A DNA stretch of 64,000 nt, from NCBI GenBank assembly GCA_000004985.1, contig GG738862.1. The stretch is one strand, 5' to 3'. Of the stretch, positions 32,279-62,253 are shown piece by piece. The stretch is from Naegleria gruberi. Lineage: Eukaryota. Below the pieces are notes generated by a model. It was not told the DNA's origin. It worked only from the letters and a program-made list of their open reading frames with translations, and searched no databases. The first letter of the stretch is position 1. Each line of letters begins with the position of its first letter. The position numbers and the translations under genes were made by a program.

Positions 32279-32920
32279 TTAATATTTAGAATAGATTGAA
32301 TATTGTTCATCATATTCTTCCATATATTGTTCATACTCATCATCCTCGTCAATAGATGAAACAATTTGTTTGCCTGTTTCTTGATTTCTAACAAATTCCT
32401 TCATAATTTTCTTATTCTTCTTATTCTTCTTTTGTGAACAAGATTTTAAAGTTGAGGTTTCTGGAGTTGTTGGTTGTAAAACAGTTGTGAATTCAGCATG
32501 TTCTCTAGCAATTCTTTCTTGTTCTTCCTTTTTGAATTTCAAAATCAATTCTCCCAATTGACCATTTGACAACATGTCAATTCTATTATTCTTATCCCAG
32601 AATACATATTCATCTCTATACATCAATTGTTGAATTCGGTGTTGTGGAAGTTCTTCAGCCAAATCACTATTTAAGAATTCTTCATATGAAATAAAAGTGT
32701 CACCTTCAAATCTGTCTTTGTAAATCATTGACAAGTGAAGATAGGCATCATTTAAATCAGAATCCCACATGATTCTATTAATTGCTTCCTTACAAGTTAG
32801 AAAACGTTCCTTTTTCTTTAGCCAAATTGTTTCTTCTTCAGCAATTTGTTCATTCTTAGAAAGGAAATATTTAGTTTGATTGGTGGCAGTATTATTTACA
32901 GGGAGGATTTTTACGGTCAT
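32279..32920 (-). CDS. protein with MJ1316/DUF504-like domain (putative RNA 2',3'-cyclic-phosphate end-binding fold) plus acidic/coiled tail
   Basis: 213-aa ORF. AINRIMWD ... DAYLHLSMIYKDR ... LPQHRIQQLMYRDEYVFWDKNNRID resembles the MJ1316 family (IKWD ... IPxHRI ... W). The C-terminus is K-rich then D/E/Y-rich. Confidence 0.4.
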   Translation of the reverse strand: MTVKILPVNNTATNQTKYFLSKNEQIAEEETIWLKKKERFLTCKEAINRIMWDSDLNDAYLHLSMIYKDRFEGDTFISYEEFLNSDLAEELPQHRIQQLMYRDEYVFWDKNNRIDMLSNGQLGELILKFKKEEQERIAREHAEFTTVLQPTTPETSTLKSCSQKKNKKNKKIMKEFVRNQETGKQIVSSIDEDDEYEQYMEEYDEQYSIYSKY

Positions 32921-33370
32921 GATTTTTTACACAGTTAGGTTGATGATCAATGGATCTTTTTTTTGTTTTGGATTTTCTTGAATTTCAGCTTGCAATTTTC
33001 TATTTAAAAGTGTGAAAAAATGTTTCACACCAGAAGTTGAAGAATAAAAATAGACTTCAAGTTCATATTGAACTTTTTTTTGTACAAACTTGAAGTTGAA
33101 TTTATTGAAATACCAGTGTTCTCAATTCCTGTAAGTGAGGGAAAGATTTTGTGTTTTGAAACCTTAGCTTGAATCTCTCTTCAAAGTTGAGGGATATTGA
33201 ATGAGATATGAGAGGTGATGAGGAGGCAAATATGTGAATTATACAAATCCTTAAAAAACATCTCAATCTCCATTAATTTCACAAAGTGCGAGTAACTTTT
33301 GAAAGCATAAAAATCGGACATCTGGAGAATCAGGTTTAAAACGTTAAACGATTATGGATATTATTTAAAA

Positions 33371-33443
33371 TATTACATAGAGGATTCGAACCTCTGACCT
33401 TGGAATTAAGAGTTCCACGCTCTCCCAGCTGAGCTAATATAAC
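33371..33443 (-). tRNA. tRNA-Lys (anticodon CUU), 73 nt
   Basis: Reverse strand: GTTATAT TA GCTC AGCTGGGA GAGC G TGGAA CTCTTAA TTCCA AGGTC AGAGG TTCGAAT CCTCT ATGTAAT A. Canonical A box (TAGCTCAGCTGG) and B box (GGTTCGAATCC). The acceptor stem is entirely A-U/G-U. Confidence 0.7.
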
Positions 33444-33562
33444 ACAGATTCGAATAAAAAAATAATACTCGTATCATCAAAGGTGTTTTGAGGCAAACTA
33501 ACAAGTTCATTGATTGTTAATAATTGTAATCAATGTTTACTGGTATTTAATATTATTTAAAA

Positions 33563-33633
33563 TATTATATAGAGGATTCGAACCTCTGACCTCGGAATAT
33601 GGTTCCACGCTCTCCCAGCTGAGCTAATATAAC
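33563..33633 (-). tRNA. tRNA-Lys-derived tandem duplicate with altered anticodon arm (CAU in a shortened loop); possible pseudogene or Met-decoding variant
   Basis: Identical D and T arms and flanks to the upstream copy. The anticodon arm is TGGAA-CCATA-TTCCG (5-nt loop, or a 4-bp stem plus 7-nt loop ACCAUAU with C33), 71 nt total. Confidence 0.5.
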
Positions 33634-33767
33634 CCAGTTTCAGATAAAAACAAATAATAGAAACCCCTTGCCAAGTGCTACTAATCAGAGCTTCAATCCT
33701 CTATTGAACGTTTTCTTACTCAAAAAATAGATTATGTTAAGATCAGTTTATTATTAATAATCACAAT

Positions 33768-36221
33768 TTACTGTGAAGGTTTTTCCTTTTTGATCATGTA
33801 AAAATTCAATTCATAATTCTTTGAGTTTTCTGTGAATAAAAATCCAATAGGAATACTAGTGAAAGTACTCTTCTTCTTATTATCCAGCTTTCCTATTACA
33901 GTTTGAGTCTTGTTCTTTTGATTTTGAGTACAAGATAATCTAATTGTAACTGTTTCATTTTCCAACAATTCCAAATTTCCCAAATAAATGCAAATATTCA
34001 ATTGTGTGCTCATGGATTGGATTTGATCCCTTGTCAATGTAATAGTTCTTGTATAAATATCAGCATGTGTTGAAATTTTACGATTCCAATAGAAAAAGTC
34101 TGTCACTGCATTGAATCCTTCAATAATAACTCCAAAGTGTTGGTCAACAACTGTGAATTGTGATTCGGAATTTGGACTCAGCTCTTCATTCTTATTGGGG
34201 AAAACATCAGAGGTGGACATTCTCTTCTTATTTGGCGAAATTAACTCAATTTCATTGGTAGTTGCCTTTTCTTTCATTCTATTTTCAATCTTAATGTTAC
34301 CTTTGTGTGAATCAACTTCAACCAACACGACACATGGCTGGAACTTTGATGAAACAATAAAGTCATCAAGTCTATCTGCATCTATTTGTCTCACATTAGA
34401 ATCATCAATAGCAAACCATGATCCAAGCTTCTTGTTATAAACGAGGCAAATATAATGTCTTCCATAGTAACAAATAATGGAAGAAACGTGTCCCATTACT
34501 TCAATATCACTACCATTACAATTCAATCTAAATATTTCGTGTAGTTTGATTTGTTTGATTTTAAAATAACTCATAAATTCCAAAATATCATCCTCTGATA
34601 TGATGTCTCTATTCCAAGAGAATGAGAATGATGTGACAGCTGGGAAAGCTTGGAAAATGTGCTTTTGTGAATCAGATATTTCTTTGCATGATTCACAAGT
34701 TCTGTGAAAACTCTCAATAGTTGATCTCAAAGCTCCCTCAAAGCTTAAACTTGGATTTTCTCTTTTTTTCTGCACAAATTCACATGATGAAATGCACCAA
34801 TTAGTTGTAGTATAATTATGTGGATCAGAGAATTTGTTACACTTGGAGCAAACATAAAAATCCGTAACATAAAAATCAAAGATCGGTATTTGAGAATACT
34901 CCAAAGAGTTGTTGATATCCTCAATAATTGCTTGCTATTCAATTGTCAATATTGATAAAAACGATGAGAAACTTACAAAAACCTCTGAGGCATCATCCAT
35001 ATGCTTGAGTTGGAATTTAGAATCCTTATTGTGAGCAAATGATAAGCTATTTCTAACCAGGTTTGGATCCAATATCGAATTTTCACTGTATTTAAAGTGT
35101 GTAAATAAATTTTGGAGGGAGCAATAAACACACGATTCAAAACTCTTATGTTTGTGATTTTTAGGATCAATTGATAGGAATAATTCTCTAAATATTTCCA
35201 AATTCCACAAACTCTGAATCACAACATTTAAAAAACAATTATATTCACCCATAGGATTTGATAATCCTTTGAGAGCTGCTTTTGATTTCTGATTTGCAGT
35301 TGATGTCACATTCGAAGTAGATAAAGGTTGATTCTCAGCAGGTAGGTTGACATAGGTTGCTCTTTCATTTGGTGTTAGAATATCAATCACCTTATTAGCA
35401 AGTTTTGTTATTGGACTTGGTGAAGGTGGTGAATTCTTCTTATTGGAATTATTGTGATTCATTGTTGAAATACTTGGTGCTCTCCTTTGATCATAATTTG
35501 ATTCCTGTTGTGAGCTGCTCATTAAATTACTATTAATACTCTGATTGAGTGCAGTTGTGGTTGCAGAGAAGGGAATAGTTTGACTATTTGGTGAAGTATT
35601 ATATCTTGGTGAGGCTGAAGGAATTGTACTGTTATTACTGCTGCTACTATTGCTATTATTATATATTAAATTATTTGCTGATGACGATGATTGAAGATGA
35701 TTATTGTACATGTTAGTTTGTTGTTGATTTTGTTGTTGTTGTTGTTGATTGAAGGAATGAAGATAGTTTTGTTGGGTAGGAACGAGCACTTGTTGTTGAA
35801 GATGATTTGGGTTTTGATAGAGAATTGGAACTTGATCAATCACTAAAGGCTGATGATTATTATTATTTGGAGGAAGAATGACAACTTGTTGGGGAGAATT
35901 TGTTGAATTGTTATTGTTAGTGTTCATCATCATGGTTGGAGGTGAAACTCTTTGGATTGGAACAGTTTGTTGGATCGGATGTGGTTGTGGTTGAAGGTTA
36001 GGAGAGGTTTGTTGGCCATGAATCATTTGTTGTTGTTGTTGTTGATTATTCATCACAATCAGGTTATTATTATTACTATTGGGTGTTAGTGTTCTTGTTG
36101 ATTGATTCGGAAGAGGAGGTAATTGAGTTGTTTGTTGTTGTTGAGGTTGTTGAGGATGAGCGTGAGCATAAATCATCCGAACTGGTTGCTGTTGCTGTTG
36201 TGGTTGTTGTTGGGGATCCAT
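33768..36221 (-). CDS. ubiquitin carboxyl-terminal hydrolase (USP/UBP, peptidase C19) with Q/N-rich N-terminus; 2 exons
   Basis: Exon 1 about 34978-36221 (MDPQQQ...; Cys box GLSNPMGEYNCFLNVVIQSLWN). 42-nt intron GTAAGT...AATAG at about 34936-34977. Exon 2 33768-34935 (His box MGHVSSIICYYGRHYICLV...WFAIDDSNV). Confidence 0.8.
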
Positions 36222-50706: not shown

Positions 50707-50777
50707 AAAAAGGTGTAGGAAGACAGGGAATCGAACCCTGATCTTAGGAACCACAATCCCATGTTCTACCACTGAAC
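50707..50777 (-). tRNA. tRNA-His (anticodon GUG), 71 nt
   Basis: Reverse strand: AGGGAGA TA GTTC AGTGGTA GAAC A TGGGA TTGTGGT TCCTA AGAT CAGGG TTCGATT CCCTG TCTTCCT A. Discriminator A73 with no encoded G-1, which is the eukaryotic pattern. Confidence 0.75.
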
Positions 50778-50854
50778 TATCTCCCTTGTTAATTTGGTAA
50801 AGAAGGGTTTTACAACTATTAGACAAATAGATCTTTGTGTTTATTGGGAATTAA

Positions 50855-54186: not shown

Positions 54187-56814
54187 CTAATATTCTCGCC
54201 AAGCATCAACGATTTCCTTTCTATAAAATCCTTGATTGATAAATTCATTTCTCAATTCCCTTGAGGCATAATTTAATGCAATTCTATGAATTTCGTCTGA
54301 TTTAATATTAGAATCCTGCTTGATTGCTTCCAAAACAACTTGTCTATCATTTCTCAGTTCATCTGATGCAAATAAAAGTGACATTCCACATTGTTTGACA
54401 GCTTCCAGAACTACTTCCTTATCATTGCAAAGTAAGTTGTCAGCAAAACGTAATGACATTCCATTATTCTTTACAGCTTGAATTACAATTTCCTTATCGC
54501 TACGGAGCTCGTATAAAACATATTCTAAAGCCAGTCCATTATGTTTCACTACTTCCATAACAAGCTCCTTATCTTTCCTAAATTCCATAGAAATTTGTGA
54601 GAGCATACTTGTGTTAAGTTTGACAACTTGAATAATGAACTCCCTATCGTTTTGTAATGAGACAGAAGCATGATTGAATGGTATACTATAAGAGGTAATT
54701 CCTTGCAATACAATTTCCTTATCATTGTAAAGTTCAGTCGTTTCTAAACATAAAATACCTCCATGTTGCAACCTAGCCAAAATAATTTCTCTATTCCTTT
54801 GCAAATCTGCAGAAGCACATTTAAACTCATTTTGATGCAATTTGACTGCATTCAATACCCATTCTTTATCGTTTCTTAACTCAGAATATGAATCTCGATG
54901 AAGATAGCACCCATTGGTCTTGAGAGCTTGTAAAAATTCTCTGTCGTTTCTAAATGCAATGGAAGCGTTATTGAATGCGTTCTTGTCTGATTTAATTGCT
55001 TGTAAGACTATTTCTAAATCTTGTTTCAACTCAATGGGTGCATAAGCAAGCACAGCAACGTTCTCTTTGATGGCTTGTTTTATAAATTCTCTGTCATTTC
55101 TTAAAGATTCACTGATATATTCAAAAGCTGTTTCATTCTGTTTTACAGCTTGAAGGGCAACTTGTCTATCATTTTTCAATTCATCAGAAGCATATCGCAG
55201 TACAGAACCATCTCTTTGAACAGCATTTAAGACGATTTCTCTATCACTCTTCAGCTCCTCTGAAGCAAAATAAAGGGACATACCCTCCATCTTAACTGCA
55301 TGCATAATAATCTCTCTAGTATTTGTAATATCTTCACTTTCATCTCTAAGGACACTATCCACGCATTCCCACCTGATAGGTTCCCTTGCTGTTGAAAGAA
55401 TCTCAATAACAAACTCTGTAGTTTTCATCTCATTCGGTAAATCTTCAAACCCATAATAAGGTGATCCTGATATTCTAAGAGCATTTAGCATAAAGTCCTT
55501 ATCACGTTTCAAATCATTGGATGCGCACTGTAAAACACCACTTATAGATTCAGTTCCAATCTCCCAATAAATGTCTTCCATGACCAGATCTTTATCATTT
55601 CTGAGCTCCTCTCCACAAAATCTCAAAGTAGAACCAGTAAATGGACACCGTATTGCTTGGAGCACAATTTCTCTATCATTATGAAAATGTGGAAGGTGTT
55701 CCAAAGCTAAATAACCACTCCTTTTAACAGCAATTAAAACCACTTGTCTATCATGTTTCAATTCATCAGATGCGAATTTTATCGCATATCCATCTTGCAT
55801 AACTGCTTTCATAACAATTTCCTTATCATTTCTCAAATCTTCAGAGAGAAACTCTAATCCTAATCCAAAATGTGAAACAGCAGTCAGGGCTATTTCTTTG
55901 TCGTTTTTCATTTCATCAGAAACTAAATTCATTGCATACATGAGGTATTTCACAGCTTGCATAATAAATGTCTTGTCGTTTTTTAGCTCACTACTTGCAA
56001 CTTCCAAGGCACTCCCTTTCAATTGAACAGCTCTCAACATGAAATCTCTGTCATTGAGTAACTCTTGACTTGCATAACGAAGTACACCCGAATGGCATTT
56101 CCTGATTGCTGTGTAAAATAGCTCTTTATCATTTTGCATTTCCTTCGATGCAAGTGCTAGTATTCTACCATTACTATCTCTCAGAAGAAATTGATAAACA
56201 ATCTCTCTATCATGACTAAACACAGAGTTAATATTAGAATAGGAGCATCCTGATTGAACAGCAGCTAGTGTTACATCTCTGTCTTGTCGTAAGTCAACAG
56301 AAGCGAATTCAATCAAATCTCCATCAAATTTAACTGCTCTAAGAACCATTTCCTTATTATTTCTCATCTTAAATGGACAATATTCCAAAAATCTTGGAAA
56401 TAGTTCAAAACCCTCCATCACAAACTCTTCATTCTCCCACAAATTTAACTTTTCACAAATGAGTTTAAATTTCTCTCTCTCAAATAGATACAAATCAAAG
56501 AGTTGCCGATAGATATATTTCTTGTCCCTAATCCAATCAAGAAAGGCAATGATTATTCTTGTCTCGAAACTGTCATTATTCTGCCGACTGTTGGTATCAT
56601 AACTATCATCAAACCTATCCTCATCATGATTTAAATTATTTAAAGCATTAATAAACTGTTTAGTTTCCTCTTCCATCCTTTTTTCAATAATCATATTAAC
56701 AAGGGATAAAAGTGTTTGGAGGATTAAACGAGACTTTTCTTTCGGTGCCGAGTCTCTGATTTTGAAAATTAATAGATTGGATGAAAAGGTTTCGTCCAAT
56801 TTACAAGTTGTCAT
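54187..56814 (-). CDS. DUF4116-like tandem-repeat protein (about 18 copies of a roughly 37-aa helical repeat)
   Basis: ORF 54187..56835. Repeats of the form REIVLNAVQRDGSVLRYASDELKNDRQVALQAVKQNE... The better start is AAAAAAAAATG at about 56814; an alternative ATG is at 56835. Confidence 0.5.
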   Translation of the reverse strand: MTTCKLDETFSSNLLIFKIRDSAPKEKSRLILQTLLSLVNMIIEKRMEEETKQFINALNNLNHDEDRFDDSYDTNSRQNNDSFETRIIIAFLDWIRDKKYIYRQLFDLYLFEREKFKLICEKLNLWENEEFVMEGFELFPRFLEYCPFKMRNNKEMVLRAVKFDGDLIEFASVDLRQDRDVTLAAVQSGCSYSNINSVFSHDREIVYQFLLRDSNGRILALASKEMQNDKELFYTAIRKCHSGVLRYASQELLNDRDFMLRAVQLKGSALEVASSELKNDKTFIMQAVKYLMYAMNLVSDEMKNDKEIALTAVSHFGLGLEFLSEDLRNDKEIVMKAVMQDGYAIKFASDELKHDRQVVLIAVKRSGYLALEHLPHFHNDREIVLQAIRCPFTGSTLRFCGEELRNDKDLVMEDIYWEIGTESISGVLQCASNDLKRDKDFMLNALRISGSPYYGFEDLPNEMKTTEFVIEILSTAREPIRWECVDSVLRDESEDITNTREIIMHAVKMEGMSLYFASEELKSDREIVLNAVQRDGSVLRYASDELKNDRQVALQAVKQNETAFEYISESLRNDREFIKQAIKENVAVLAYAPIELKQDLEIVLQAIKSDKNAFNNASIAFRNDREFLQALKTNGCYLHRDSYSELRNDKEWVLNAVKLHQNEFKCASADLQRNREIILARLQHGGILCLETTELYNDKEIVLQGITSYSIPFNHASVSLQNDREFIIQVVKLNTSMLSQISMEFRKDKELVMEVVKHNGLALEYVLYELRSDKEIVIQAVKNNGMSLRFADNLLCNDKEVVLEAVKQCGMSLLFASDELRNDRQVVLEAIKQDSNIKSDEIHRIALNYASRELRNEFINQGFYRKEIVDAWREY

Positions 56815-57010
56815 TTTTTTTTGTAAAATATTCATCTAGATTCGTATCATTTTTAAATTTGAGATTTGTGTAATCTTGCTCCGACTCTTACTGTTGAATA
56901 TCCCATACACCTCAAATTGAGAACATCCAAAAAAGGACTTGTGCGGAAGGATGGTCAAGTTGACAAGAGGCAATTCGCGAAACTCGTGCAGTAACATTAT
57001 TTCAAAAAAA

Positions 57011-58495: not shown

Positions 58496-59052
58496 GGAAT
58501 GTTTTAAGGGTTGGTCACTGAAAAAGTCAAAGATAAAGTGTAATACAAAACAACAAAAACAGACGGACACACTCATTAATTGCTCATATATACTCGTGAG
58601 CAATGTCTTACAAGCCTTAATGAATGGGTAGTAGGTATAAATTAAATATCTTTCTCTCTTGAGTACATTATTGCATTGACAGTTTTCTTACTTGTCCAAT
58701 GGAGCAGTGATGATGAATTTAGCATTATATTGGATGGAAAACAATGATGATGGTTTTGGTGAACTATCGGATGATGGAACACCAACTTGTGATTTTCCAT
58801 CATGAAAAATAAATTCCATAATTTCATGATGAAGAGAATAAAGGTTCAATTATTCATTGACTACTCAACTCTGTTACAAAACTTGATTGATTTGAGAGAT
58901 TGTAATTAAAGCTCTCAAATATGGACATTCAAATGATTAAACATGGAACACAACCATCACTTTTCATTAAAATTTTGTGGTCAATTAGTGAACGACATGA
59001 AAGAAAAAAAATAACAGAGCTTCAGTTGAACTCTCCAAGAGGATTTTACACA

Positions 59053-62000
59053 ATGACTGCTGGCTCCTCCTCTCTATTGTCGTTCCTATTTCTATTTGTG
59101 ATTTGCTGTTCTCTAATTCACCAATTGAGTGCACTTTCTTTTAACAATATTTCAACAATTGTTGGAGGAGGAAGTTTTATTGGTGATGGGTTGATTTCAA
59201 CCAATGCCTTGCTGAACTATCCATCTGGTATGGCCATGTATAATGGTGATTTATTAATTGCCGATTCGTTTAATCACAGAATTCGAAAGGTTTCGTTTTC
59301 AAGTAGTGGCGTTATTTCAACAATTGCTGGTATTGGTTCTTCATCATTTAGTGGTGATGGCGGTTTGGCAATTAATGCAGAGTTGAATTTTCCAAGTGGT
59401 GTTGCTGTTCATTCTAATGGTGATGTCTATATTGCAGATAAGTCTAATCATGTTATTAGAAAGGTTTCGGCTCTCAATGGAAAGATCACAACAATTGCTG
59501 GAATTGCAGGTGAAACTGAATTGAACAAGTACAGTAACTCATTAGCAACAAATACCACACTGAATTCTCCACAATATCTTGCCGTCAATTCTTCAACTGC
59601 AGAAGTCATCATTTCAGATACAAATAACAATGTTATTCGAAAGGTCTATCTTAATGGAACTATTGTAACAATTGCTGGAGTTTATGGAAGTTCTGGATAC
59701 TCTGGTGATAATGGCAATGCAGTTTCTGCCAAACTCTTCAATCCAAAGGGAATAATCATCAACTCAATTGGTGAAATTATTTTTGCTGATTCTAGAAATC
59801 ACAGAATTAGAAAGATTTCTACAAATGGAAAGATTACAACAATTGCAGGAACTGGAACTGCAGGATTGAGTGGGGATGGTGGTTTGGCTACAAGTGCCAA
59901 ATTGAATTATCCAAATAGTGTTGCATTGGGTTTGAATAATGAGATTTTGATTGTTGACACTTTGAATCATCGAATTAGAAAACTATTCTCAAATGGAACA
60001 ATTATTTCAATTGCTGGGAATGGAACTACTCAAGGTTTTTCTGGAGATGGTGGTAATGCTTTGAATGCCTTGTTAAATTTACCAAATGATGTTGTAATGA
60101 CATTGAATGGTGAATATTTCATTTCTGATTTTGGTAATCATAGAATTAGAAAGGTTTCCAATAGTGGAATAATTTCAACCATTGTTGGTACTTCAAATTT
60201 TGGAAATATCATTCAAGGAGGAAGTGCTTACGTCCTCCCAACTGGCAATCCAATTATTTATTCCACTAAATATCTTGCATTTGCTGACATGAGAGGAAAA
60301 ATCAGTCAAATTGACTTGACAACAAGGATTGTTTCATCTGTAATTTCAGCTCCTCTTCCTTCTGCAGTTGGTTATAAAAGCAAACTTCATGCCATGTATC
60401 TTGATTCCTTTTTAGGAAGTTTAGCAACCAAGATTACAGTGGTTGCTGGAACAGGAAAATTGGGAGGATATGCTGGAGATGGTGGCTTGGCTACAAGTGC
60501 CAGAATTCAAAAACCAACTTCAGTAGTGTTGAATGATCAAAATCTCTATATTGTTGACACTCTGAATCATAGAATTAGAAAGGTTTCATTGACATTTGGC
60601 AACATTACAACAATTGCTGGAATTGGAACTGCAGGCTTTTCTGGAGATGGTGGTTTGGCTACAAAGGCTAAATTGAATTATCCTACACATATGGCTATCA
60701 GTGCAAGTGGAGAAATTTTCATTTCTGATAATGGAAATCAAAGAATTCGTAAAATTGCGACAAATGGAAAGATTTCAACAATTGCTGGAAATGGAATTGT
60801 TGGATTTAGTGGTGATAATGGATTGGCTACTAAAGCTACTTTCAATTCACGAAATGGTATTGCAGTTGCTTCGAATGGTGATGTGTATGTTGCTGATACT
60901 AGAAATCATCGTATTAGAAAGATTTCAGTTTCGAATGGTTTCATTTCAACATTTGCAGGAAATGGTTCAGTGGCCTATCAAGCTACATTTGGTGGAGATG
61001 GAGGATTGGCTGTTAGTGCCAAGTTAAACCTTCCATACTCTGTTGCAATTAATAATGCAACTAATGAGGTCTATATTACTGATTCTGGTAATCATAGAAT
61101 TCGAAAGGTTTCTACCAGTGGAATTATTTCCACTATTGTAGGAACAGGAAGTGCAGGATTTTCTGGAGATTCTGGGTTAGCCATTAATGCTAAACTCAAT
61201 TTACCATACTCTATTTCAATTAATGCATTGGGAGAACTTTTTATTTCTGATCAACTCAACCAAAGAATTCGTAAGGTTTCCACTACAAATTATATCACAA
61301 CCATTGGTGGAAATGGTGGTATAGGTTTTAACGGTGATGGGTTATCAGCCACAAGCACTCAATTGAAATATCCATTTGGAATTTCAGCTAGCTCCACTGA
61401 GGTTTATTTTGCCGATTCTCTAAATAGTAGAGTTAGAAAGATTTCCAATGGAAAAATTACAACAATTGCTGGAGGAATTGGTGATGGTTTAGCAGCTACA
61501 AGTGCGTATCTCAATTCCAACTCTTTCACAACTACTCCGAGTGGCGAATTCATTATTGCCGATTCAAACAACAATCTTATTCGAAAGATTTCAACAAGTG
61601 GTATAATTTCAACCATTGCTGGAACTGGAGCTGCCACTTTTGGAGGAGACAATGCAAATGCCACCATTGCTAAACTGAATAATCCATTAAATGTTGCAGT
61701 GAGTTCGAGTGGTGAAATCTTCATTGCCGACACCAACAACCATAGAATTCGAAAAATTTTCCTCAATGGCACCATTACAACCATTGCAGGTAATGGAACT
61801 GCAGGATATAGTGGCGATGGATTAGATTCAACCAAATGTCAACTTAACTATCCAAGTGCTGTAGCCGTTAGCTCAGGAGGGGAAATCTTTATTGTTGATA
61901 CACATAATCATAGAATTAGAAAAATTGCAATTGACGGAATAATCTCAACTATTGCAGGTAATGGAATTGCGGGATTTAATGGAGATGGAAAATTACCCAT

Positions 62001-62106
62001 CAATACTCAATTGAATTATCCAACAGGAATTGTGATTGCATCGAGTGGTGAGGCATATATTTCTGAAGAAGGAAATAGGAGAATTAGAAAGATTTATCTT
62101 CAATAA
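59053..62106 (+). CDS. secreted NHL-repeat protein (about 20 tandem NHL/YD-like beta-propeller blades)
   Basis: ORF 58921..62106. Start ATG at 59053 (CACAATGACT) giving signal peptide MTAGSSSLLSFLFLFVICCSLIHQLSA. Repeat unit ...NHRIRKVSxxGxISTIAGxGxxGFSGDGGLATxAKLNYPxGVAxxxxGxIYIADxxN... Confidence 0.7.
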   Translation: MTAGSSSLLSFLFLFVICCSLIHQLSALSFNNISTIVGGGSFIGDGLISTNALLNYPSGMAMYNGDLLIADSFNHRIRKVSFSSSGVISTIAGIGSSSFSGDGGLAINAELNFPSGVAVHSNGDVYIADKSNHVIRKVSALNGKITTIAGIAGETELNKYSNSLATNTTLNSPQYLAVNSSTAEVIISDTNNNVIRKVYLNGTIVTIAGVYGSSGYSGDNGNAVSAKLFNPKGIIINSIGEIIFADSRNHRIRKISTNGKITTIAGTGTAGLSGDGGLATSAKLNYPNSVALGLNNEILIVDTLNHRIRKLFSNGTIISIAGNGTTQGFSGDGGNALNALLNLPNDVVMTLNGEYFISDFGNHRIRKVSNSGIISTIVGTSNFGNIIQGGSAYVLPTGNPIIYSTKYLAFADMRGKISQIDLTTRIVSSVISAPLPSAVGYKSKLHAMYLDSFLGSLATKITVVAGTGKLGGYAGDGGLATSARIQKPTSVVLNDQNLYIVDTLNHRIRKVSLTFGNITTIAGIGTAGFSGDGGLATKAKLNYPTHMAISASGEIFISDNGNQRIRKIATNGKISTIAGNGIVGFSGDNGLATKATFNSRNGIAVASNGDVYVADTRNHRIRKISVSNGFISTFAGNGSVAYQATFGGDGGLAVSAKLNLPYSVAINNATNEVYITDSGNHRIRKVSTSGIISTIVGTGSAGFSGDSGLAINAKLNLPYSISINALGELFISDQLNQRIRKVSTTNYITTIGGNGGIGFNGDGLSATSTQLKYPFGISASSTEVYFADSLNSRVRKISNGKITTIAGGIGDGLAATSAYLNSNSFTTTPSGEFIIADSNNNLIRKISTSGIISTIAGTGAATFGGDNANATIAKLNNPLNVAVSSSGEIFIADTNNHRIRKIFLNGTITTIAGNGTAGYSGDGLDSTKCQLNYPSAVAVSSGGEIFIVDTHNHRIRKIAIDGIISTIAGNGIAGFNGDGKLPINTQLNYPTGIVIASSGEAYISEEGNRRIRKIYLQ
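59130..62090 (+). repeat. intragenic tandem repeats (about 140-150-bp period) encoding NHL blades
   Basis: Recurrent nucleotide strings (ACAATTGCTGGAA..GGTGATGGTGGTTTGGCTAC..CATAGAATTAGAAAGGTTTC) about 20 times. Confidence 0.6.
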
Positions 62107-62162: not shown

Positions 62163-62253
62163 GGTGAGATGGTCGAGTGGTCTAAGACGACACGTTAAGG
62201 TATGATTAATACCGTGTTCCGCAAGGGCGTGGGTTCAAATCCCACTCTCATCA
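62163..62253 (+). tRNA. tRNA-Leu (anticodon AAG), class II, with about 11-nt intron after position 37
   Basis: GGTGAGA TG GTC GAGTGGTCTAA GAC G ACACG TTAAGG [TATGATTAATA] C CGTGT TCCGCAAGGGC GTGGG TTCAAAT CCCAC TCTCATC A. Intron at about 62201-62211. Confidence 0.65.

What the first reader, a model, noticed from the sequence alone, without database searches (positions are those of the whole stretch)
33345..33660. Tandemly duplicated tRNA-Lys(CUU) genes: one copy has a rewritten anticodon loop (CAU), and both have all-A-U/G-U acceptor stems
The two units are about 190 bp apart and near-identical, including the flanks, D arm, T arm, and A/B boxes. In the downstream copy (33563-33633) the anticodon loop CTCTTAA has become CCATA, with a neighbouring A to G change in the 3' stem. 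This gives either a 5-nt loop (non-functional) or a 4-bp stem with a 7-nt loop ACCAUAU carrying a CAU (Met) anticodon and C33, which is an initiator-like feature. This could be a pseudogene caught decaying, or an anticodon-switched tRNA. In both copies the acceptor stem (GUUAUAU/AUGUAAU) has no G-C pair, which is very unusual for a nuclear Pol III tRNA and suggests the pair may be a tRNA-derived repeat rather than the main Lys isoacceptor genes.
Basis: seen in the sequence. Interest (0 to 1): 0.55.

Follow-up and report, generated by a model that had tools for sequence, protein, structure and literature searches.

The report
Lysine tRNA gene with broken twin
In the nuclear genome of the amoeba Naegleria gruberi, an intact lysine tRNA gene sits 190 bases from a duplicate whose anticodon loop has lost two bases; the duplicate is most likely a dying tRNA gene, which is ordinary apart from an unusually weak, G-C-free acceptor stem.

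Summary
Two 110-nt units lie on the minus strand, 190-192 nt apart: 33358-33467 and 33550-33659. Each unit has a 24-26 nt leader, a tRNA, and the trailer TTTTAAATAATAT.

The window is Naegleria gruberi NEG-M nuclear DNA.

Copy 1 (33371-33443) is a canonical tRNA-Lys(CUU), scoring 65.4 bits against Rfam tRNA.

Copy 2 (33563-33633) differs at A43G and G68A, both of which keep pairing. Its loop is CCAUA where copy 1 has CUCUUAA, and it scores 50.6 bits. Its lowest-energy form is a 5-nt loop. A 7-nt loop, ACCAUAU, costs 0.8 kcal/mol and leaves only a 4-bp stem without U33.

Of the initiator-tRNA hallmarks checked, copy 2 has only CAU and C33, and only in the forced 7-nt-loop register.

Both acceptor stems have no G-C pair yet are fully paired (-2.5 kcal/mol, against about -7.6 for the neighbouring His and Leu tRNAs). 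This argues for a selected stem rather than decay.

A probable third, eroded T-arm relic lies inverted at 33685-33730.

N. fowleri has no tRNA at the syntenic position.

Best reading: a local tandem duplication of a working Lys(CUU) gene, with copy 2 a young pseudogene. I could not search the N. gruberi genome for sister copies, and I could not test expression. Interest is low.

The parts
33371..33443 (-). Copy 1: canonical tRNA-Lys(CUU) gene, 73 nt. The acceptor stem is GUUAUAU/AUGUAAU (G1.U72, U5.G68 and five A-U pairs) and the discriminator is A73.
   Evidence: ARAGORN. Rfam RF00005 gives 65.4 bits, E=5.7e-12, full length. The sequence was read.
33406..33412 (-). Anticodon loop of copy 1: CUCUUAA, 7 nt, with U33, anticodon CUU and A37.
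33444..33467 (-). 5' flank of copy 1 that is shared with copy 2: TATTATTTTTTTATTCGAATCTGT. It is A/T-rich and TATA-like.
   Evidence: Alignments; repeat families D2 and D3.
33358..33370 (-). 3' flank of copy 1: TTTTAAATAATAT. A run of four T, a Pol III terminator-like signal, starts directly after A73. This flank is identical in copy 2.
33468..33549 (.). An 82-nt spacer between the two units, with no similarity to the sequence outside the units.
33563..33633 (-). Copy 2: a 71-nt paralogue of the tRNA with a shortened anticodon loop. G43 gives U27.G43 and A68 gives U5-A68. It is a probable pseudogene.
   Evidence: Rfam gives 50.6 bits, with 4 loop residues where the model has 6. ARAGORN calls it Met(CAU) using a shifted stem.
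33598..33602 (-). Anticodon loop of copy 2: CCAUA, 5 nt. If the A31-U39 pair opens, the loop becomes ACCAUAU.
   Evidence: Energies are -2.7 kcal/mol for the 5-nt loop and -1.9 kcal/mol for the 7-nt loop, and P(A31-U39 paired)=0.77.
33634..33659 (-). 5' flank of copy 2: TATTATTTGTTTTTATCTGAAACTGG. It differs from the copy 1 flank by 4 substitutions and a 2-nt indel.
33550..33562 (-). 3' flank of copy 2: TTTTAAATAATAT.
33685..33730 (+). Probable eroded relic of the 3' half of a third unit, in inverted orientation. It has the T arm TCAGAGCTTC-AATCCTCTAT (19 of 21 matches), then TTTT and AAAAAATA.
   Evidence: It is the best non-self local match to the tRNA anywhere in the window: score 30, against 24.5 +/- 1.3 and a maximum of 28 in 60 shuffles. 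Infernal does not detect it.

Best explanation
This is a small birth-and-death cluster of nuclear, Pol III-type tRNA-Lys(CUU) genes in Naegleria gruberi NEG-M.

A 110-nt minimal transcription unit was duplicated in tandem. The unit consists of an A/T-rich leader, the tRNA with its internal A and B boxes, and a T4 terminator directly after A73. Alternatively, the two units have been kept alike by gene conversion.

Copy 1 (33371-33443) is an intact gene and very probably works. Its product would be processed, receive CCA, be charged by lysyl-tRNA synthetase through its anticodon, and read AAG codons. The G-C-free but fully paired acceptor stem is a property of this gene lineage, not a sign of decay.

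Copy 2 (33563-33633) kept its structure for a while after the duplication, because both stem substitutions preserve pairing. A change in the anticodon loop (TCTTA to CAT, a net loss of 2 nt) then removed U33 and left a 5-nt loop. Copy 2 is probably still bound by TFIIIC and may still be transcribed, but it cannot present an anticodon normally. It is therefore a young tRNA pseudogene.

An older, mostly eroded fragment lies beside it in inverted orientation.

Shown here: the anatomy, the scores, the identity of the organism, and the absence of a tRNA at the syntenic position in N. fowleri. Inferred: transcription, charging, loss of function in copy 2, and the order of events.
For: Organism: ORF 32279-32920(-) is 100% identical over its full length to N. 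gruberi NAEGRDRAFT_66472. The CLC channel ORF is 95-99% identical to N. gruberi sequences. Short-intron eukaryotic genes surround the locus.

Copy 1: 65.4 bits, about the same as the neighbouring tRNA-His at 69.2 bits. It forms a full cloverleaf with a 7-nt loop, U33 and anticodon CUU. Read, it has U8, A14, G18G19, GGUUCGAAUCC, and TTTT directly after A73.

Copy 2: 50.6 bits, with the deficit confined to the loop. The 5-nt loop is the minimum-free-energy fold and is favoured by 0.8 kcal/mol.

Divergence between the copies: outside the loop the tRNA bodies differ at 2 of 66 positions, and both changes keep pairing. The 5' flank differs at 4 of 24 positions plus an indel (Fisher p=0.04). This fits constraint or gene conversion on both copies until recently.

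Relic: a third fragment lies 50 nt from copy 2.

Genomic context: the region has no ORF longer than 54 aa. N. gruberi is reported to carry 924 tDNAs, including 41 pseudogenes, and 77 pairs closer than 1 kb where 39 are expected, so such pairs are a known feature of this genome (PMC2888827, supplement 2).

Acceptor stem and charging: acceptor stems are reported not to hold major identity elements for eukaryotic tRNA-Lys (PMC3923123). An A-U-only stem therefore need not block lysylation.
Against: There are no expression, processing or charging data.

No other N. gruberi Lys(CUU) gene could be examined, so I do not know whether the A-U-only acceptor stem is the norm, a minor isodecoder, or a dead lineage.

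The acceptor stem is much weaker than its neighbours, at -2.5 kcal/mol against -7.8 (His) and -7.5 (Leu). The cloverleaf of copy 1 is no more stable than shuffled sequence (z=-0.23).

Copy 2 keeps perfect A and B boxes, its terminator and all of its stems, so a retained function is not excluded.

The 7-nt-loop conformer is only 0.8 kcal/mol away.

The contrast between flank and body rests on very few sites, and p=0.18 when both flanks are pooled.
Confidence: 0.65

Rival explanations
1. Copy 2 is a working tRNA that has switched from Lys to CAU, an alloacceptor anticodon shift. It uses the 7-nt loop ACCAUAU on a 4-bp anticodon stem, or a stem that co-opts G26.A44. It is charged by methionyl-tRNA synthetase through CAU and A73, and it reads AUG.
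For: ARAGORN accepts this register and names it Met(CAU). The 7-nt-loop conformer costs only 0.8 kcal/mol, and the A31-U39 pair is open about 23% of the time in the model. CUU to CAU needs a single substitution at position 35. Anticodon shifts between identities are documented in eukaryotes (PMC3923123). Both stem substitutions in copy 2 keep pairing, and its promoter and terminator are intact.
Against: In this register position 33 is C, not the near-universal U. The anticodon helix is one pair short, which moves the anticodon relative to the elbow. The score drops by 14.8 bits. The initiator hallmarks A1:U72, G29-31:C39-41 and A54/A60 are all absent (read). There is no conservation evidence, because the whole cluster is missing at the syntenic position in N. 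fowleri.
Confidence: 0.08
2. Copy 2 does not decode but is kept for another role. It could be a TFIIIC/Pol III-bound element acting as a boundary or affecting the co-oriented UCH gene that ends 135 nt upstream. It could also be a source of small tRNA-derived RNAs.
For: The A and B boxes and the T4 terminator are perfectly preserved, and the body differs from copy 1 at only 2 of 66 sites while the 5' flank differs at 4 of 24. It lies between two protein-coding genes on the same strand.
Against: The same pattern is expected from a recent duplication or from gene conversion, with no function needed. No independent conservation was found. N. fowleri has no element at this position.
Confidence: 0.1
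3. Both copies are members of a non-translational tRNA-derived repeat family, SINE-like or otherwise mobile. The true Lys(CUU) genes have G-C-containing acceptor stems and lie elsewhere in the genome.
For: There is no G-C pair in either acceptor stem, and the stem is weak. The edges of the 110-nt unit are sharp, and its ends form an 8-nt inverted repeat, TATTATTT...AAATAATA. A third fragment lies nearby. N. gruberi has an unusually large tDNA complement of 924.
Against: There is no tRNA-unrelated body or tail. There are no other copies in the 64-kb window. Copy 1 has every canonical tRNA feature and scores like the neighbouring tRNAs. All seven acceptor pairs form in both copies; I estimate the chance expectation at about 0.001 for this base composition. 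The one difference between the stems is pairing-preserving. An 8-nt A/T inverted repeat is weak evidence in DNA that is 31% G+C.
Confidence: 0.07
4. The tRNA is of foreign or organellar origin: a mitochondrial insert in the nucleus, or DNA derived from a giant virus or a bacterium. That would explain the A-U-only acceptor stem.
For: A-U-rich acceptor stems are typical of A+T-rich organelle and virus genomes (own knowledge).
Against: Exact-match scans with 22-29-nt pieces of the tRNA found nothing in IMG/VR viral contigs or in 185,579 bacterial and archaeal genomes. The metagenome scan gave only two chance hits in high-G+C coding DNA. The one isolated Naegleria giant virus carries no tRNAs (PMC11043551). 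The D, anticodon and T stems are G-C-containing, the anticodon is CUU, and a T4 terminator abuts A73, which together look like a nuclear Pol III gene. The flanking genes are cellular, and on one side they are syntenic with N. fowleri. The scans required exact matches, so diverged relatives would have been missed, and the N. gruberi mitochondrial genome could not be fetched.
Confidence: 0.04
5. The short loop of copy 2 is an assembly or sequencing error, and both copies are intact Lys(CUU) genes.
For: None found here. Tandem near-identical repeats can be mis-assembled.
Against: The change is a complex replacement (TCTTA to CAT), not a homopolymer slip. It comes with two further substitutions and a diverged 5' flank, so the two copies are clearly distinct sequences.
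Confidence: 0.03

Closest known systems
Locally duplicated (clustered) nuclear tRNA genes in eukaryotes, as surveyed by Bermudez-Santana et al. 2010 (PMC2888827)
   Same: Two tDNAs lie less than 1 kb apart in parallel orientation, and one is degenerate. That survey reports 77 such pairs in N. gruberi (39 expected), of which 8 are same-isotype parallel pairs and 45 are mixed parallel pairs, plus 41 pseudogenes among 924 tDNAs.
   Different: Similarity here is limited to a sharply bounded 110-nt unit with an unrelated 82-nt spacer. In addition, the gene lineage has an acceptor stem with no G-C pair.
tRNA pseudogenes formed by a lesion in the anticodon loop
   Same: Copy 2 descends from a neighbouring intact gene, has a lesion in an essential element (a 5-nt loop without U33), and has a lower covariance-model score.
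   Different: All four stems, both promoter boxes and the terminator are still perfect, so the copy is very young or still constrained. Expression is unknown.
tRNA anticodon shifts / alloacceptor remoulding (Rogers and Griffiths-Jones 2014, PMC3923123)
   Same: A duplicated tRNA gene now has a different triplet, CAU, at the centre of its anticodon loop, one substitution away from CUU.
   Different: Documented shifts keep a 7-nt loop and were accepted only when syntenically conserved. Here the loop is 2 nt short and no conserved orthologue is available.
Eukaryotic initiator tRNA-Met
   Same: In the forced 7-nt-loop register it shares only CAU and C33.
   Different: It lacks A1:U72, the three G-C pairs at 29-31:39-41, and A54/A60. 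Its body is that of the neighbouring Lys tRNA.

Membership tests
Canonical cytosolic elongator tRNA gene (copy 1, Lys-CUU) | Cloverleaf with 7/4/5/5-bp stems and a 7-nt anticodon loop carrying U33 and a purine at position 37 | tested here: met
   Rfam RF00005 65.4 bits, full length; ARAGORN drawing
Canonical cytosolic elongator tRNA gene (copy 1, Lys-CUU) | Conserved nucleotides U8, A14, G18G19, G53-U54-U55-C56, A58 and C61, with internal A and B boxes | tested here: met
   Read: UAGCUCAGCUGGG and GGUUCGAAUCC
Canonical cytosolic elongator tRNA gene (copy 1, Lys-CUU) | Pol III terminator (a run of T) just downstream | tested here: met
   TTTT starts directly after A73 in both copies. The neighbouring tRNA-Leu also ends with T4.
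Canonical cytosolic elongator tRNA gene (copy 1, Lys-CUU) | Acceptor stem containing G-C pairs (typical of cytosolic tRNAs, not strictly defining) | tested here: not met
   0 of 7 G-C pairs. Stem energy is -2.5 kcal/mol against -7.8 (His) and -7.5 (Leu) in the same window.
Canonical cytosolic elongator tRNA gene (copy 1, Lys-CUU) | Transcribed, processed, given CCA and charged with lysine | not testable with these tools
   No expression data are reachable
Canonical tRNA (copy 2) | 7-nt anticodon loop with U33 | tested here: not met
   The loop is CCAUA. The Rfam alignment shows 4 residues where the model has 6, and the score is 50.6 bits. The 5-nt loop is the minimum-free-energy fold.
Eukaryotic initiator tRNA-Met (copy 2) | A1:U72 pair | tested here: not met
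   G1.U72
Eukaryotic initiator tRNA-Met (copy 2) | Three consecutive G-C pairs at 29-31:39-41 | tested here: not met
   The stem is U.G, G-C, G-C, A-U, A-U
Eukaryotic initiator tRNA-Met (copy 2) | A54 and A60 in the T loop | tested here: not met
   The T loop is UUCGAAU, so position 54 is U and position 60 is U
Anticodon-shifted (Lys to Met) functional tRNA (copy 2) | New anticodon presented in a standard 7-nt loop on a 5-bp stem | tested here: not met
   A 7-nt loop is possible only with a 4-bp stem or with a G26.A44 'pair', and it costs 0.8 kcal/mol
Anticodon-shifted (Lys to Met) functional tRNA (copy 2) | Variant conserved at the orthologous locus in related genomes | tested here: inconclusive
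   The N. fowleri syntenic block (the 532-aa gene, the 104-aa gene and UCH) ends at this intergenic region and holds no tRNA there.
tRNA-derived SINE or dispersed repeat | tRNA-related head joined to an unrelated body and tail, present in many dispersed copies | tested here: not met
   The unit is only tRNA plus 24-26 nt and 13 nt of flank. There are no further copies in 64 kb except one adjacent relic. The genome-wide count was not testable.
tRNA pseudogene (copy 2) | Descent from a tRNA gene plus a lesion in an essential element | tested here: met
   The copies are identical at 64 of 66 body positions outside the loop (90% over the whole 103-nt unit alignment, E=8e-30). The loop is shortened to 5 nt and U33 is lost.
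tRNA pseudogene (copy 2) | No mature, charged product | not testable with these tools
   Needs tRNA-seq or northern blots
Organelle-derived nuclear insert (NUMT) | Specific identity to the mitochondrial tRNA-Lys and co-transferred organellar flanks | not testable with these tools
   N. gruberi mitochondrial DNA could not be fetched. The flanks are nuclear genes, and similarity is limited to the 110-nt units.

The most novel reading that the evidence does not exclude
The A-U-only, G1.U72 acceptor stem marks a distinct and functional class of Naegleria nuclear tRNA. It could, for example, be a Lys(CUU) isodecoder specialised for mitochondrial import or for priming, where an easily melted acceptor stem helps. 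Alternatively or in addition, copy 2 is an expressed, aminoacylated tRNA that reads AUG from a 4-bp-stem, 7-nt-loop anticodon arm. That would be a Lys-to-Met alloacceptor shift caught in a non-canonical architecture.
Probability: 0.07. Interest if true: 0.6.

Novelty: new member of a known kind. Interest (0 to 1): 0.2.

Why it matters
As it stands, this is a routine example of tRNA gene birth and death in a genome already known to carry about 900 tDNAs and many close pairs. It mainly serves as an annotation caution. ARAGORN labels copy 2 'tRNA-Met(CAU)', which would inflate the Met gene count and hide a Lys-derived pseudogene.

The one feature worth a specialist's glance is a well-formed nuclear tRNA-Lys(CUU) whose acceptor stem has no G-C pair and starts with G.U. 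If that turned out to be the main Lys(CUU) species of Naegleria, or a dedicated isodecoder, it would be a mild surprise for work on tRNA stability, processing and identity.

Tried and rejected
1. Fetching N. gruberi DNA outside the window to find sister Lys(CUU) genes. Look-ups of window proteins and of NEG-M proteins all returned 'not on record'.

2. Orthologous or paralogous loci:
- The CLC paralogue locus and the MJ1316 orthologue locus in N. fowleri, the MJ1316 orthologue locus in N. lovaniensis, the UCH homologue locus in Willaertia, and an environmental MJ1316 contig hold no tRNA and no other Rfam family in 119 kb.
- Only the UCH side is syntenic with the window.

3. One metagenome scan with a pattern that allowed either loop. 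It gave two hits, both chance matches inside high-G+C bacterial coding DNA.

4. Viral scans and bacterial/archaeal scans for exact pieces of the tRNA found nothing, so recent foreign origin was rejected.

5. Literature searches for Naegleria tRNA-Lys, acceptor stems or GtRNAdb data found nothing specific. The N. gruberi genome paper is not held.

6. A permissive Infernal scan of 32800-33900 for further tRNA fragments found only the two copies. The other hits are sub-threshold noise.

7. The initiator-tRNA reading was rejected on three hallmarks.

8. An intron or insertional editing to rescue the loop was considered and dropped. The loop is too short rather than too long, and no such editing is known for nuclear tRNAs (own knowledge).

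Full report
**What is there.**
Both tRNA finders place two tRNAs on the minus strand. ARAGORN reports tRNA-Lys(CUU) at 33370-33444 and 'tRNA-Met(CAU)' at 33563-33633. Rfam RF00005 reports 33371-33443 at 65.4 bits and 33563-33633 at 50.6 bits, both full length and above the 29-bit gathering score.

Read on the minus strand, copy 1 is GUUAUAU-UA-GCUC-AGCUGGGA-GAGC-G-UGGAA-CUCUUAA-UUCCA-AGGUC-AGAGG-UUCGAAU-CCUCU-AUGUAAU-A. Copy 2 is the same except for three things:
- The loop is CCAUA (33598-33602) in place of CUCUUAA (33406-33412).
- Position 43 is G, giving U27.G43 where copy 1 has U27-A43.
- Position 68 is A, giving U5-A68 where copy 1 has U5.G68.

The two acceptor stems differ at one position. 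The flanks are alike only over short stretches.

**Extent of the repeat.**
Alignments and the repeat finder define two 110-nt units, 33358-33467 and 33550-33659. Each unit has three parts:
- a 24- or 26-nt A/T-rich leader (TATTATT[TG]TTTTTAT..GAA.CTG.), which differs between copies by 4 substitutions and a 2-nt indel;
- the tRNA;
- an identical 13-nt trailer, TTTTAAATAATAT, whose T4 run starts directly after the discriminator A73.

The 82-nt spacer (33468-33549) and the sequence outside the units do not align. The similarity is far beyond chance (BLAST E=8e-30; 0.00 matches expected in shuffles). No ORF longer than 54 aa crosses the 848-nt intergenic region.

**Where the window comes from.**
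ORFs in the window encode eukaryotic proteins: kinase, NHL repeats, a CLC channel, a ubiquitin hydrolase split by a short intron. ORF 32279-32920(-) is 100% identical over its full length to Naegleria gruberi NAEGRDRAFT_66472. The CLC channel ORF matches N. gruberi sequences at 95-99%.

The window is therefore N. gruberi NEG-M nuclear DNA, with 31-39% G+C. It also holds two other tRNA genes:
- tRNA-His(GUG) at 50716-50786(-);
- tRNA-Leu(AAG) with an 11-nt intron at 62163-62253(+).

**Is copy 1 a real gene?**
It has every canonical feature:
- a 7/4/5/5 cloverleaf;
- U8, A14, G18G19, U33, and the T loop UUCGAAU;
- intact A and B boxes and a T4 terminator;
- a score like that of the neighbouring tRNA-His.

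The odd point is the acceptor stem, which has five A-U and two G.U pairs and no G-C pair. In a nearest-neighbour model it is worth -2.5 kcal/mol, against -7.8 (His) and -7.5 (Leu) for the other tRNAs in the window. The whole cloverleaf is no more stable than shuffled sequence.

Even so, all seven positions pair in both copies. My estimate of the chance expectation for this base composition is about 0.001. The single difference between the two stems, G68 versus A68 opposite U5, keeps pairing. That is the pattern of a stem under selection to pair, not of a decaying repeat.

Published work cited in PMC3923123 holds that eukaryotic tRNA-Lys identity rests mainly on the anticodon and not on the acceptor stem. 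An A-U-only stem therefore need not prevent lysylation. I conclude, by inference, that copy 1 is a functional Lys(CUU) gene of an unusual isodecoder type.

**What is copy 2?**
The 14.8-bit drop against the tRNA model lies entirely in the loop. The minimum-free-energy fold keeps all five anticodon-stem pairs and a 5-nt loop.

Opening the A31-U39 pair gives the 7-nt loop ACCAUAU. This costs 0.8 kcal/mol, and in the model the pair is closed 77% of the time. ARAGORN reaches 'Met(CAU)' only by shifting the stem and counting G26.A44 as a pair. In that register position 33 is C and the helix is one pair short.

The initiator hallmarks are absent. Pair 1:72 is G.U, only two G-C pairs lie in the anticodon stem, and the T loop has U54 and U60. 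'Initiator-like' is therefore not supported.

The loop change can be written as one complex event, TCTTA to CAT. If it is counted instead as three independent edits, the clustering is unlikely (p=0.008). If it is counted as one event, the clustering is unremarkable (p=0.26).

Outside the loop the two bodies differ at 2 of 66 sites, both pairing-preserving, while the 5' flank differs at 4 of 24 sites (p=0.04; p=0.18 if both flanks are pooled). This weakly suggests that copy 2 was constrained, or converted against copy 1, until recently. That fits a young pseudogene.

**A third fragment.**
The best non-self match to the tRNA anywhere in the 64-kb window lies 50 nt from copy 2 on the opposite strand, at 33685-33704. 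It reads TCAGAGCTTC-AATCCTCTAT against the T arm TCAGAGGTTCGAATCCTCTAT. Its score is 30, against 24.5 +/- 1.3 and a maximum of 28 in 60 shuffles. The alignment continues through TTTT and AAAAAATA, which resemble the unit's trailer. Infernal does not report it, so I treat it as a probable eroded relic. Intact, damaged and eroded copies side by side are what a birth-and-death process leaves.

**Comparative context.**
N. gruberi DNA outside the window could not be fetched.

In N. fowleri, the UCH gene, the adjacent 104-aa gene and the 532-aa gene are syntenic with the window (62% identity for the 532-aa gene). Downstream of UCH, however, N. fowleri has a PQ-loop gene after 123 nt and no tRNA. The cluster thus sits at the edge of a synteny block, and its age cannot be read from this comparison.

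No tRNA at all was found in 119 kb of N. fowleri, N. lovaniensis, Willaertia and environmental loci, against four tRNAs in this 64-kb window. That agrees with the expanded tDNA set reported for N. gruberi: 924 tDNAs, 41 flagged as pseudogenes, and 77 pairs within 1 kb where 39 are expected (PMC2888827 and its supplement 2). Close parallel pairs that include degenerate members are therefore a known feature of this genome.

**Foreign origin.**
Exact-match scans with pieces of the tRNA found nothing in viral contigs or in bacterial and archaeal genomes. The metagenome scan gave only two chance hits in high-G+C coding DNA. The one isolated Naegleria giant virus has no tRNAs (PMC11043551). A mitochondrial origin could not be tested directly. 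It fits poorly with the CUU anticodon, the G-C-containing inner stems and the Pol III-type terminator.

**Verdict.**
The most likely explanation (0.65) is a tandem duplication of a working tRNA-Lys(CUU) transcription unit, with copy 2 a young pseudogene disabled by a 2-nt-shorter anticodon loop.

Less likely readings:
- a non-decoding but retained Pol III element (0.10);
- a functional CAU-reading tRNA (0.08);
- a non-translational repeat family (0.07);
- foreign or organellar origin (0.04);
- an assembly error (0.03).

The kind is known and the instance is ordinary. The G-C-free acceptor stem is the only feature that merits a genome-wide follow-up.

Noticed in passing
window 33685-33730 (+): Probable eroded relic of the 3' half of a third tRNA-Lys-like unit, inverted and 50 nt from copy 2. 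The T arm matches at 19 of 21 positions and is followed by TTTT and AAAAAATA. It is the best non-self hit to the tRNA in the whole window.
   Followed up: partly
window 62163-62253 (+): tRNA-Leu(AAG) gene with an 11-nt intron in the anticodon loop. The default ARAGORN run left it unnamed ('tRNA-???'), but running ARAGORN with introns allowed resolves it.
   Followed up: yes
window 50716-50786 (-): tRNA-His(GUG) with an A1-U72 first pair and no genomically encoded G-1 (the base before position 1 is A). A G-1 would have to be added after transcription.
   Followed up: no
window 33358-33467 and 33550-33659: Both 110-nt units begin with TATTATTT and end with AAATAATA(T), an 8-nt terminal inverted repeat that coincides with the edges of similarity. 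It may be chance in A/T-rich DNA, or it may be a trace of how the unit was copied.
   Followed up: no
window 32921-33767 compared with L007 11155-11278: Micro-synteny with N. fowleri (the 532-aa gene, the 104-aa gene and UCH) ends exactly at the intergenic region that holds the tRNAs. N. fowleri has a PQ-loop gene there instead, and its MJ1316 and CLC genes lie elsewhere.
   Followed up: partly
window 32279-32920 (-): The gene next to the tRNA cluster encodes an MJ1316 'RNA cyclic group end recognition' domain protein (NAEGRDRAFT_66472). N. gruberi has an 82%-identical paralogue on another scaffold.
   Followed up: no
window 33768-34904 and 34935-36221 (-): The ubiquitin hydrolase (UCH) gene is split into two ORFs about 30 nt apart, which suggests a very short intron. 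The N. fowleri orthologue is split at the same place, with an 85-nt gap.
   Followed up: no
window 54187-56835 (-) and 58921-62106 (+): Two large repeat proteins: 18 DUF4116 repeats (E=3.6e-200) and an NHL/teneurin-type repeat protein (E=2e-84).
   Followed up: no
L001, L003, L007-L010, L012-L014 (119 kb): No tRNA and no other Rfam family at gathering score in 119 kb of N. fowleri, N. lovaniensis, Willaertia and environmental loci, against four tRNAs in this 64-kb N. gruberi window.
   Followed up: partly
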